Below, piece by piece: positions 18,678 to 20,045 of a DNA stretch of 64,000 nt. The first letter of the stretch is position 1. The number at the start of each line of letters is the position of its first letter. Location: contig OZ001293.3 in the NCBI GenBank assembly GCA_963921275.4, forward strand, positions 4,256,001-4,320,000, written 5' to 3'. The notes beneath the pieces were generated by a model. That model was not told the origin of the DNA. It did no database searches and was given only the letters and a program-made list of their open reading frames with translations. A program made the translations under genes and the position numbers. This DNA comes from an uncultured Hormoscilla sp. GTDB taxonomy: Bacteria; Cyanobacteriota; Cyanobacteriia; Cyanobacteriales; Desertifilaceae.

Positions 18678-20045
18678 GGGTGCATCTCAGTTAGGCGATG
18701 AGTATATTTACTCAGCACAAGTGGATTTACTGAGTCTGATTAGGCAACTAATGCGCCATTCAGGTAGGCACAGCGATGCTTCAACACCTACGGTCCGCGG
18801 ACGGCCCGAAAAATCGGCACATTCTCGGCTCGCCATTGTGCCCCCGGTAATTTCACCCTTAACCCAATTTGTTTCACCAGGGACTCAACCCGACCAGAGC
18901 CAATCGAGTGCCGAGCTGCCTGCCCGTTCGCGCAGCGGCCCGACGCCAGGAGGGCTAGCCTGGTAGTCAATGATGCGCGTCTGATGGTGCTTCAAGTAGT
19001 TGATCAACCCTGTGGCTCCCCGACATTGCTGTTGGCGCAGATAACTAATCGCCCTCTGGGTCTCCCCTCGCCACAGGAGTGCACGGTCCGCGGACGGCCC
19101 GAAAAATCGGATCTGCACGGTCCGCGGACGGCCCGAAAAATCGGATTGAGCCGGTGTCCCTTGCACCTTATTGGCATTTTCCATTAGGTGATACCAATCG
19201 AGCACTTCGATCCGTTGTTCTGGTGTCCCGATACCACTGAAAATGTTCCACACCCCATCATGACCATCTCCGAGACCGGTGAACTGCGCCCCGAGGGGCT
19301 GGGCATTCACCCACTCAAGCAGCCCTTGATTATCCTTGAAGAAAGCCACACTGCCTTGCTCATGGACATTTAAGGCTTTGTATTCTCGCCACTCACCAGG
19401 TTGACCCTCCACGGTCCGCGGACGGCCCGAAAAATCGGTACGAAGGCGAATCATGCCGCCATCCAAGCTGAGCTCCTGAATCGGTTCAGCTATCTCTACC
19501 TCAGACCAGTCCTCTCGTTGAACAAAGCGTTGGAGCGTACTGTGGGAGATGCTCACCCCAGTCAGCATCGCGAGATCTTTTACGGTCCGCGGACGGCCCG
19601 TAAAATCGGCTTTCTGGTAAGAGGCATTGGCACTGACGACCCAACAACATTTTTCCACATACGGACTCCAACGAGTTCCCGGTTTAACTTGCAGTTGTTG
19701 GGCTTGAGCAGTGGTGAGGGTTAGTTTGCCCAGGATACTGGTCAGGGTGCGCTGTTTTCCGGTGCGGCGGGAAGTCGCCGTGTTGATAAAAAAATTCCTA
19801 GTTGAGGCCAGACGTGTTCTTGGGCAAGCGCACGAACGTTTTTCTCAATGCCTTCAAGGGTGGTGAGTTCAGTGGGGTCGGCTTCCTGGTAGAGAATCGC
19901 GGCAATCGCGTCAAGATGTTGCTGGAGTTCAGCCTGCTTTTGGGAGTTCATGGGTCAAGGGTAATCAACAGTGCCTAAATTATGTACCGTTTTGAGGGAG
20001 ACAAGCACTATGTATAATTACTCATCGCCTAACTGAGATGTACCC
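18678..20045 (-). mobile_element. ISKra4-family element with degraded transposase
   Basis: 27-bp IRs GGGTRCATCTCAGTTAGGCGATGAGTA; 8-bp TSD TTATTTTT; motifs LDGGMIRLR, LGDGHDGVWN, LDWYHL, IGSGRVES. Confidence 0.9.
18790..19609. repeat. Five copies of ACGGTCCGCGGACGGCCCG(A/T)AAAATCGG micro-insertion
   Basis: Copies at 18790, 19083, 19117, 19411 and 19582. Confidence 0.95.

What the first reader, a model, noticed from the sequence alone, without database searches (positions are those of the whole stretch)
18790..19609. Family of 15- and 24-nt frame-preserving micro-insertions sharing a GATTTTTC end; five hit one transposase
Seen, type A: ATTTTTCGGGCCGTCCGCGGACCG (24 nt, read on minus) occurs 5 times in the ISKra4 gene in different frames (DFSGRPRT, RFFGPSAD, IFRAVRGP), always after CCG. 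Type B: ACGCTGCGCGAAAAA (15 nt) at 10159, 23255, 25985 and 57487; at 57487 comparison with sister repeats (55601, 59371) shows it splitting a CGA^TC site. Type C: ATTTTTCCGGAACGGTG+7 nt (24 nt) at 7711 (in patX) and 26307, with an empty-site analogue near 26025. All lengths are multiples of 3 and there are no IRs or enzyme gene. Known: 21-27-nt small dispersed repeats were described in Nostoc, mechanism unresolved. Inference: related but possibly new families with one shared recognition end, spread by an unknown (perhaps RNA-templated) mechanism that adds peptides to proteins.
Basis: partly seen in the sequence, partly recalled or inferred. Interest (0 to 1): 0.78.

Follow-up and report, generated by a model that had tools for sequence, protein, structure and literature searches.

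The report
Tiny hairpin mobile inserts after CGA
The flagged sequences are real ultra-small mobile DNA (15 and 24 bases, built as five T's, a mini-hairpin and a final T) that lands exactly after the letters CGA in genes and between them; it resembles the little-studied 'small dispersed repeats' of Nostoc, here in a different cyanobacterial lineage and with a clearer anatomy.

Summary
All 11 listed copies are present, plus one 24-nt copy of a further family (E). Type C is 15 nt, not 24. The shared "GATTTTTC" is two things: the target (C)CGA, then the element's own start TTTTTC.

Every T-rich family (A, B, C, and a 50-nt family G) has the same build: T5, a hairpin running C…G, and a last T (or A). 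They insert precisely after CGA, with no target duplication.

The insertions are real. A sister species' copy of the same ISKra4-type IS is empty at all five type-A sites. 18 clean filled/empty paralogue pairs and filled/empty sites between species show the same junction.

The families were found in all five genomes of the genus (relatives titled Hormoscilla sp.), at very different copy numbers. They were not found in 36 other genomes of the order.

Roughly half the copies lie in coding sequence. Copies that end in CGA recreate the target and form tandem arrays.

Closest known are the SDRs of Nostocaceae (Elhai 2008), especially HIP1-splitting SDR5. I rate this a new variant of a known kind.

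No mobilising enzyme was identified. Single-stranded DNA hairpin transposition is my preferred mechanism, but it is unproven.

The parts
18678..20045 (-). ISKra4-family insertion sequence, 1368 bp with terminal inverted repeats. Its transposase frame is broken by frameshifts. It hosts five type-A inserts and one extra 31-nt segment.
   Evidence: blastn places 13 full or partial copies in the genome, counting this one. NCBIfam NF033572 matches at E 1.2e-31 and 110 bits, below the 205-bit cut-off.
18790..18813 (-). Type A, 24 nt: gtgccga|TTTTTCGGGCCGTCCGCGGACCGT|aggtg. Read as IFRAVRGP.
   Evidence: The site is empty (GTGCCGA^AGGTG) in G004.
19083..19106 (-). Type A, 24 nt, after ATCCGA. Read as FFGPSADR.
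   Evidence: The site is empty (ATCCGA^GCACT) in G004.
19117..19140 (-). Type A, 24 nt, 34 nt from the previous copy. This site is not a simple insertion: G004 has GGAGA where the window has TCCGA.
19411..19434 (-). Type A, 24 nt, after TACCGA. Read as DFSGRPRT.
   Evidence: G004 shows an exact 24-nt gap.
19582..19605 (-). Type A, 24 nt, with one substitution (TTTTA), after AGCCGA.
   Evidence: The site is empty (AGCCGA^ACAAG) in G004.
7712..7726 (+). Type C, 15 nt, in a PatX-like ORF (7370-7759, two RGSGR motifs). It adds FFRNG.
   Evidence: The insert is shared by G002 and G003, carries a 5-nt deletion in G004, and is absent in G001.
26308..26322 (+). Type C, 15 nt, after CATTCTGA, inside another dispersed repeat.
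   Evidence: An empty paralogue of this repeat family is (C_3815811). A contig of run X5 bridges the site without a gap.
10159..10173 (-). Type B, 15 nt, aacgccga|TTTTTCGCGCAGCGT|gcaag, inside a multi-copy element that lies next to reverse-transcriptase ORFs.
   Evidence: Empty paralogues show ...GCCGA^GCAAG.
23255..23269 (+). Type B, 15 nt, at CTCGA^TCG.
   Evidence: A 2775-nt contig of run X2 covers it with no difference.
25985..25999 (+). Type B, 15 nt, at CTCGA^TCC.
57487..57501 (-). Type B, 15 nt, splitting CCCGA^TCGCC.
   Evidence: Sister repeats at 55601 and 59371 are empty at exactly this bond.
6909..6932 (+). Family E, 24 nt, a double GNA hairpin: cccga|TCGCGTAGCGTGCGCGCAGCGCAA|tcgg.
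   Evidence: The orthologous site in G002 is empty.

Best explanation
These are non-autonomous, ultra-small mobile DNA elements of the 'small dispersed repeat' kind.

Anatomy (shown). Each T-rich family is an unpaired TTTTT, then a hairpin that starts with C and ends with G, then one last T (less often A).
- B is CGC-GCA-GCG.
- C is CCG-GAA-CGG.
- A is CGGGCCG-TCCG-CGGACCG.
- G is a 20-bp stem.
- Families D and E have a single T, two GNA-loop hairpins and a last T.

Behaviour (shown).
- The element is inserted between the A of (C/T)(C/T)GA and the next base, which is never C. This is often the dyad centre of the HIP1 core, CGA^TCG.
- There is no target duplication and, as a rule, no change to the flanks.
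- Insertion occurs in either orientation relative to genes, and in coding sequence almost as often as outside it.

Inferred from the shared features. Families with unrelated hairpins share ends and target. So one machinery, supplied in trans, probably recognises the ends and the fold rather than the hairpin sequence.

Mechanism (inferred, about 35-40% likely). The element moves as single-stranded DNA. A structure-specific nuclease-ligase of the HUH/Y1 type, or one with a similar action, cuts 3' of CGA and 3' of the element's last T, as IS200/IS605 and REP/RAYT systems do.

Survivorship (inferred). Selection then keeps the copies that are multiples of three and free of stop codons inside genes.
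For: Insertion status:
- The G004 copy of the IS is empty at all 5 sites.
- 18 unique clean filled/empty paralogue pairs show 0 mismatches in the 8 nt to the left and 4 nt to the right of the junction.
- In 176 kb of G000/G002 orthologous alignment, 3 C are shared and 2 are G002-only; 5 of 12 D in G002 have cleanly empty G000 sites and none is shared (7 lie in messy alignment); 3 of 4 E in G000 are empty in G002.
- The patX insert is absent from the most distant congener, G001.

Target and ends:
- Left flank logo for C: C94 C83 G98 A100. The right flank is never C.
- The T-run is exactly 5 in 71 of 73 A cores, and preceded by CGA or TGA in 197 of 257 C cores.
- Six tandem B copies that each end in CGA lie at C1:4116585.

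Architecture:
- DNA folds give an unpaired T5, a hairpin and an unpaired last base for A, B, C and G. The fraction of shuffles folding as well is 0.000-0.033.
- Loop variants keep G-N-A: GAA to GCA in C, GCA to GTA in B.
- Family G carries its loop in both orientations.

Distribution:
- C 155/18/111/122/94, A 69/7/23/134/49 and B 105/21/28/48/42 in G000-G004.
- C: 0 in 36 other genomes of the order. A: 0 in 12.
- CCGATTTTTC occurs 336 times against a control of 11 in G000, and near control in almost all of 400 phylum genomes.

Coding: intergenic share is A 9/27, B 44/88 and C 68/173 unique contexts, with 68% of the chromosome called coding by my crude gene model.
Against: - No enzyme was identified. 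The two Y1_Tnp genes of G000 have no A, B or C element within 15 kb, and one is flanked by a different hairpin repeat.
- Neither Y1 gene tracks the elements. One is found in only 1 of 4 congeners. The other has orthologues above 80% identity only in G003. Its family was found in 24 of the 41 genomes searched (G000 included), 19 of them outside the genus and without C elements.
- Orientation does not flip with the weak GC skew: 65+:29- in 0-2.46 Mb against 106+:88- elsewhere. The replication-strand bias typical of IS200/IS605 elements is therefore not seen.
- A single 9-nt hairpin is far smaller than any substrate known for HUH transposases (my recollection).
- A-ending copies are always followed by T (B 16/16, A 16/17). 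T-ending type-A copies never are. A simple cut-and-paste model does not explain this dependence.
- At one IS site the 5 nt left of the insert differ from the empty allele.
Confidence: 0.85

Rival explanations
1. RNA-templated insertion. A small structured RNA (5'-A-hairpin-AAAAA-3', the bottom-strand sequence) is copied by one of the many reverse transcriptases. Synthesis is primed from a nick after CGA, so T5 is made first. This is target-primed reverse transcription in miniature.
For: - The genome holds 93 RVT_1 matches, most of them open frames of 400 to 609 residues.
- The A5 sits next to the nick, as in target-primed reverse transcription.
- Type B sits inside RT-linked multi-copy elements.
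Against: - The T-run is fixed at exactly 5, with almost no T4 or T6 variants, so it is not a variable tail.
- There is no target duplication.
- There is no sense/antisense bias in genes: C 52/53.
- Loops are G-N-A triloops. By recall, these are characteristic of stable DNA hairpins rather than RNA hairpins.
- No link between any RT and the elements was shown.
Confidence: 0.2
2. Copy-choice or break repair. A host nuclease cuts at CGA (HIP1-core-like sites). The break is repaired by short-patch copying from an existing filled site, using CCGA and downstream microhomology. No dedicated transposase is involved.
For: - At the IS tandem site, the 5 nt left of the insert (TCCGA) replace GGAGA of the empty allele, as if donor flank were co-copied.
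- The last base (A or T) correlates with the following base.
- A, B and E favour the HIP1 core.
Against: - 18 of 18 clean pairs show no flank conversion, although that set was selected for clean gaps.
- The element ends are invariant, whereas microhomology repair should give ragged junctions.
- Unrelated hairpin families share exact ends.
Confidence: 0.2
3. Footprints. The short sequences are what a larger transposon with TTTTTC... and ...GT termini leaves behind after excision.
For: The families share both termini. The 50-nt family G shows that longer cargo is possible.
Against: - After GATTTTTC, the recurrent continuations are the short families themselves, or interiors of unrelated repeats with fixed flanks. 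No long element with these termini was seen.
- Each unit folds as one complete hairpin rather than two half-ends.
- Tandem arrays exist.
Confidence: 0.04
4. Native sequence or an assembly/adapter artefact.
For: All IS copies within this genome carry the segments at identical places.
Against: - The G004 IS copy lacks all five.
- The elements occur in five assemblies and in contigs of runs X2 and X5, which come from two studies.
- Many filled/empty pairs exist.
Confidence: 0.01

Closest known systems
Small dispersed repeats (SDR1-8) of Nostocaceae, especially SDR5 (Elhai, Kato, Cousins, Lindblad, Costa, Genome Res 2008). The paper is not held. I saw only passages that cite it, in PMC4390886, PMC5861425 and PMC13756078.
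   Same: - Non-coding dispersed repeats of tens of bases or fewer, with evidence of recent mobility.
- Precise insertion at or beside the centre of HIP1. [quoted passage not shown]
- The mechanism is unknown.
   Different: - Lineage: PMC5861425 states that no SDR was found outside Nostocaceae, whereas the relatives here are titled Hormoscilla sp..
- Most C sites are not HIP1 (CCGA^R), which fixes the bond after the A.
- The T5-hairpin-T build. I could not check whether the SDRs share it.
REP elements and REPINs, mobilised by RAYT (TnpA-REP, Y1 HUH) transposases (PMC3116915, passages; the rest recalled).
   Same: A short hairpin preceded by a conserved short 5' motif (GTAG there, T5 here). Non-autonomous, with hundreds of copies. 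Presumed to act as single-stranded DNA.
   Different: - REPs are extragenic; here about half the copies lie in coding sequence.
- The RAYT-like gene of this genome is flanked by a different hairpin repeat, with no A, B or C element within 15 kb.
- The gene does not co-distribute with the elements.
IS200/IS605 family, e.g. IS608 (recalled knowledge).
   Same: Insertion immediately 3' of a fixed tetranucleotide, with no target duplication and no terminal inverted repeats. Hairpins define the ends. Excision can be seamless.
   Different: Those elements are over 1 kb, carry tnpA, and have two distinct subterminal hairpins with guide sequences. Here the whole element is 15-50 nt with one hairpin (two in D and E), and no replication-strand bias was seen.
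HIP1-splitting 21/24-nt mini-elements, and a 45-nt hairpin family in a Hormoscilla genome, noted earlier in this scan (e1-5217470, e1-3139628, e1-3139629, e1-2694317, e1-2464875). These are unchecked AI notes.
   Same: Tiny hairpin inserts that land at one bond of GCGATCGC, lie in frame in genes, and nest in other repeats. Family E here (24 nt, double hairpin) looks like that kind.
   Different: The T5 families, their non-HIP1 CCGA^R targets and the 15-nt size are not mentioned there. A sequence look-up found no match.

Membership tests
SDR (Elhai 2008) | Short non-coding sequence repeated at dispersed sites, far above chance | tested here: met
   Genome-wide: A 62-83, B 80-136 and C 87-248 copies. 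558 copies of six families. Shuffle expectation about 0.
SDR (Elhai 2008) | Evidence of insertion from filled versus empty sites | tested here: met
   B and C are 15 nt and G is 50 nt. A and E (24), D (22/23) and F (27) fall in the range.
SDR (Elhai 2008) | Restricted to Nostocaceae (PMC5861425 passage) | tested here: not met
   The matches lie in records titled Hormoscilla sp.. They were found in 5 of 5 genomes of the genus and 0 of 36 others of the order.
SDR5 | Inserted between the 3rd and 4th nucleotides of HIP1, GCG^ATCGC (PMC4390886 passage) | tested here: inconclusive
   A-ending copies at CGA^TCG fit either GCG^A or GCGA^T. T-ending copies and all CCGA^R sites fix the bond after the A, which is the 4th/5th bond.
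SDR1-8 | Sequence match to a published consensus | not testable with these tools
   The paper and its supplements are not held.
REP/RAYT | Hairpin with a conserved 5' motif | tested here: met
   T5 plus hairpin in A, B, C and G. This is an analogy of form only.
REP/RAYT | A RAYT gene flanked by its own REPs and co-distributed with them | tested here: not met
REP/RAYT | Extragenic location | tested here: not met
   50-67% of unique contexts lie in ORFs of my crude gene model.
IS200/IS605 | Insertion 3' of a fixed tetranucleotide, no target duplication | tested here: met
   (C/T)(C/T)GA^ with 0 duplicated bases.
IS200/IS605 | Carries tnpA (Y1), or is a derivative sharing the ends of a tnpA-carrying element | tested here: not met
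   No coding capacity. No long element with these ends was seen. The Y1 genes are not associated.
MITE | Terminal inverted repeats and a target-site duplication | tested here: not met
   The ends are T5 and ...GT, and no duplication occurs.
Non-LTR/TPRT retroelement | A-tail of variable length, target duplication | tested here: not met
   The T-run is fixed at 5 and there is no duplication.

The most novel reading that the evidence does not exclude
Hormoscilla carries an as yet unrecognised insertion machinery, neither a known transposase family nor RAYT. Its whole substrate is T5, any C...G hairpin and a T. It pastes that substrate at the bond CGA^N. Units as small as 15 nt would then be the smallest self-defined mobile DNA known. 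This system could rewrite protein loops genome-wide and could saturate one strand of an IS (4 of its 5 CCGA sites).
Probability: 0.25. Interest if true: 0.85.

Novelty: new variant of a known kind. Interest (0 to 1): 0.6.

Why it matters
How SDR-type elements move has been open since 2008. This genus offers a sharper anatomy than what I could see quoted:
- a minimal unit (T5, a 9-nt GNA hairpin and a T);
- an exact target bond, resolved at non-palindromic sites;
- several families with unrelated hairpins that share ends and target;
- self-targeting tandem arrays;
- species-specific bursts.

That gives biochemists defined oligonucleotide substrates and targets. It also shows that 5- to 8-residue peptide insertions are tolerated in conserved genes. 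The HtpG-, CoaBC- and DnaE-like identities of those genes are my reading of the translations, not tool-tested. Finally, it extends such elements beyond Nostocaceae to an uncultured sponge symbiont.

Tried and rejected
- Reading Elhai 2008 failed by DOI, PMC id and PubMed id. Only citing passages were seen.
- Literature on Hormoscilla repeats: 0 papers hold Hormoscilla + repeats + transposase. In PMC6520454 I searched for repeat, transposase, pseudogene and insertion; nothing relevant appeared.
- Replication-strand bias: GC skew is weak and no orientation flip was seen.
- Y1/RAYT association by distance and by phyletic pattern was rejected.
- Footprint or parent-element search after GATTTTTC found family G plus unrelated repeats, and no long parent.
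- Rfam on the 928-nt insert present in four IS copies: no match at gathering score or at E<=1. My group II intron guess is therefore unsupported.
- Phylum scan: only G051 has a repeat of its own that starts CCGA|TTTTTC. The excess in G226 and G191 is made of diverse sequences.
- Sequencing runs: no RNA holder was listed.
- Contigs laid on 22800-26700 showed presence of the elements but no usable filled/empty polymorphism.
- Earlier-findings look-ups by place and by sequence were blank.
- 26025 as an empty analogue of the C copy at 26307 was rejected.
- Pfam found nothing in the IS ORFs.
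Full report
**1. Observation**

The window is G000:C1:4256001-4320000.

- Five type-A 24-mers lie on the minus strand between 18790 and 19605, one of them with a single mismatch. None was expected in 100 shuffles.
- Four type-B 15-mers are present.
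- Two type-C cores are present.

A regex inventory of the window gives 12 elements. These are the 11 above plus a 24-nt family-E copy at 6909-6932.

The five A copies sit in a 1368-bp ISKra4-family IS (window 18678-20045, minus strand). NCBIfam NF033572 matches at E 1.2e-31 but below its cut-off, and the reading frame is split.

**2. These are genome-wide families**

On the 7.03-Mb genome the exact copy numbers are A 62, B 80 and the C 17-mer 87. With mismatches allowed they rise to 83, 136 and 248.

GATTTTTC occurs 996 times. About 400 of these continue as one of the three families.

A stricter inventory of six families counts 558 copies: C 209, B 112, E 86, A 73, D 68 and G 10.

**3. Boundaries, target and proof of insertion**

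I ran blastn on 400 instances, each with 150-nt flanks, against the same genome. It found paralogous empty sites.

After filtering for exact gaps, 18 unique pairs remained (13 C and 5 B). In these pairs the filled and empty alleles are identical over the 8 nt to the left and the 4 nt to the right of the junction. That set was selected for clean gaps.

The pairs show that C is 15 nt, not 24: ...CCGA|TTTTTCCGGAACGGT|R... against CCGA|R.

The target logo is (C/T)(C/T)GA on the left. The first base on the right is never C. For A and B that right side is mostly TCG, which makes the site the HIP1 core CGA^TCG. For C it is mostly A or G.

There is no target duplication.

B at 57487 splits GGGGCGA^TCG relative to two sister repeats. 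The proposed empty site at 26025 is not a clean analogue.

**4.

Other copies of the IS in this genome carry the same A inserts at the same positions. There are 12 other full or partial loci. Four of them hold an additional 928-nt non-coding insert.

However, sister species G004 holds a copy of the same IS, 81-89% identical, that is empty at all five places:
- AGCCGA^ACAAG
- TACCGA^GGAGG
- ATCCGA^GCACT
- GTGCCGA^AGGTG
- at the fifth site, G004 has GGAGA^GCAGA where the window has TCCGA + A + GCAGA.

The segments are therefore insertions that predate the IS's spread in this genome. They are not native transposase sequence.

The empty IS has five CCGA^(A/G/T) sites on the transposase sense strand, and four of them are filled. 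It has two such sites on the other strand, and neither is filled. Genome-wide there are 39,698 such sites and only about 22-27 independent type-A contexts. So this is an enrichment of more than a thousandfold, on one strand. I cannot explain it.

**5. Architecture**

Folding with DNA parameters gives the same picture for A, B, C and G: an unpaired T5, a hairpin from the next C to the penultimate G, and an unpaired last base.

| Family | Length | Hairpin |
|---|---|---|
| A | 24 nt | CGGGCCG-TCCG-CGGACCG, with a G.A mismatch |
| B | 15 nt | CGC-GCA-GCG |
| C | 15 nt | CCG-GAA-CGG |
| G | 50 nt | 20-bp perfect stem; loop TTCC or its complement GGAA |
| D | 22/23 nt | T + two GNA-loop hairpins + T |
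| E | 24 nt | T + two GNA-loop hairpins + T |

The common variants change only the middle loop base: GAA to GCA in 17 of 173 C contexts, and GCA to GTA in 11 of 88 B contexts.

The T-run is fixed at five.

The last base is T, or less often A. A-ending copies are always followed by T (B 16/16, A 16/17). T-ending copies are followed by A, G or T.

A-ending copies recreate the target CGA^. Six such B copies stand in tandem at C1:4116585.

**6. Where they land**

I used a crude ORF-based gene model of my own (6354 ORFs covering 68% of C1).

- The intergenic share of unique contexts is A 9/27, B 44/88 and C 68/173.
- Sense versus antisense in ORFs is C 52/53, B 17/27 and A 10/8.
- C shows a phase preference: 44 of 52 sense copies read DFSGTV, and 32 of 53 antisense copies are in phase 0.
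- A, B (GCA loop) and C have no stop codon in any of the six frames. E, G and the GTA variant of B do.
- D is not a multiple of three and has the lowest ORF share, 22/68. That fits survivorship rather than a frame-aware mechanism.
- Inserts lie in long conserved-looking ORFs. I read these as HtpG-, CoaBC- and DnaE-like from their translations only (not tool-tested).
- One C insert lies in a PatX-like ORF in the window.

**7. Distribution and turnover**

| Family | G000 | G001 | G002 | G003 | G004 | Other genomes |
|---|---|---|---|---|---|---|
| C 18-mer | 155 | 18 | 111 | 122 | 94 | 0 in 36 of the order |
| A | 69 | 7 | 23 | 134 | 49 | 0 in 12 |
| B | 105 | 21 | 28 | 48 | 42 | not searched |

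A scan of one genome per species placed the C 18-mer overwhelmingly in records titled Hormoscilla sp. Elsewhere it occurred mostly as single hits, about the number expected by chance (a few Methanoregula records hold it too).

In 400 sampled genomes of the phylum, CCGATTTTTC is near its control count almost everywhere. G000 has 336 against a control of 11. One genome, G051, has its own repeat that starts CCGA|TTTTTCAAGTCAC....

In 176 kb of G000/G002 orthologous alignment:
- 3 C are shared and 2 are G002-only.
- 12 D are present in G002 and none is shared; 5 of them face cleanly empty G000 sites.
- 3 of 4 E in G000 are empty in G002.

The patX insert is shared by four species and absent in G001.

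Different families have therefore expanded in different species since they diverged at about 92-93% DNA identity.

**8. Mechanism**

Shown: precise, duplication-free insertion 3' of CGA; a shared end-plus-fold architecture across unrelated hairpins; no coding capacity; mobility over the timescale of speciation.

Inferred: a single machinery supplied in trans.

My preferred model (about 35-40%) is single-stranded DNA transposition by a structure-specific nuclease-ligase acting like IS200/IS605 TnpA or RAYT. The reasons are the fixed 5' tetranucleotide target, the absence of duplication, the hairpin-defined ends and the G-N-A loops. By recall, G-N-A loops are typical of very stable DNA mini-hairpins.

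Evidence against that model:
- The two Y1 genes are neither near A, B or C elements nor co-distributed with them.
- There is no replication-strand flip.
- The dependence of the last base on the next base, and the altered flank at one IS site, are not explained.

Rivals:
- Insertion templated by a reverse transcriptase. The genome has 93 RVT_1 matches. But the T-run is fixed, there is no duplication and there is no transcription-strand bias.
- Short-patch copy-choice repair at nuclease-cut CGA sites.

Native sequence and assembly artefact are excluded.

**9. Comparison and novelty**

The closest known systems are the SDRs of Nostocaceae.
- PMC5861425 says no SDR was found outside Nostocaceae.
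- PMC13756078 calls SDR5 a 21-nt sequence of unknown function.

I saw these as passages only. I could not read Elhai 2008 itself, so sequence membership is untested.

What differs here is the lineage, the 15-nt size, the non-HIP1 targets that fix the bond, and the explicit T5-hairpin-T build.

Earlier notes of this scan report HIP1-splitting 21/24-nt inserts in other cyanobacteria and a 45-nt hairpin family in a Hormoscilla genome. The scan has therefore met this kind of element before, on other DNA. I did not test those notes.

Verdict: a real and well-defined new variant of a known, poorly understood kind of element. The mechanism remains open.

Noticed in passing
L001 (G000:C1:528600-531100), about 647-1575; the same insert at C1:1180584-1181511, 3483535-3484462 and 4567748-4568676: Four copies of the IS carry a 928-nt non-coding insert that starts GTGCGATTCGTTC. 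Its 12-mers occur about 180-450 times in the genome. Rfam gives no match at gathering score or at E<=1, so this is an unclassified high-copy element.
   Followed up: partly
G000 whole genome: 93 RVT_1 (PF00078) matches, most of them open frames of 400 to 609 residues. That is an unusually heavy load of reverse-transcriptase genes. Type B sits in one multi-copy element next to such ORFs.
   Followed up: no
G000:C1:241711-242259 (L047 1417-1965) and flanks: A RAYT-like Y1_Tnp gene (69 bits). It is flanked upstream by AGCCCGCCTGCGCGGGCT hairpins and downstream by a tandem array of ~85-nt units that contain GCCCGCGC...GCGGGC hairpins. This is a classical REP/RAYT arrangement, distinct from the T5 families.
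   Followed up: partly
window 18905-18960 (IS, sense strand ...CCAGGCT[..]GCAGCT...): The window's IS has 31 extra bases relative to the G004 copy. They are not a clean member of any family defined here, and they shift the C-terminal frame of the transposase.
   Followed up: partly
window 19083-19140: The two A copies 34 nt apart are not two simple insertions. The 5 nt left of the upstream copy read TCCGA where the empty allele has GGAGA. Either donor flank was co-copied, or a 34-nt duplication was followed by a 10-nt deletion.
   Followed up: partly
window 25785-25870 and 26050-26135: An ~85-nt unit with hundreds of near-identical copies, often in tandem at ~60-nt spacing, is present in all four congeners.
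   Followed up: no
G000:C1:4116585-4116674: Six tandem copies of the A-ending type-B 15-mer, directly after GCGATCGCTCGA. This is either self-targeting or slippage.
   Followed up: partly
G000:C1:5096032-5096669: Eight type-C copies at exactly 89-nt spacing: a tandem repeat that was amplified after the insertion.
   Followed up: no
G051 (another genus of the same order): It has its own dispersed repeat, CCGA|TTTTTCAAGTCACGCACCCTAC, in about 30 copies. This may be an independent T5-type family.
   Followed up: no
L046 (G004:C39:18600-22500): The empty IS copy of G004 is itself interrupted by a ~2-kb element at a TTAAA that appears on both sides.
   Followed up: no
G002 loci L021-L040: A 27-nt family F was seen once as a G002-only insertion: cga|TTTTTCGCGCAGGACACGCAGCCCTGT|.
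   Followed up: no
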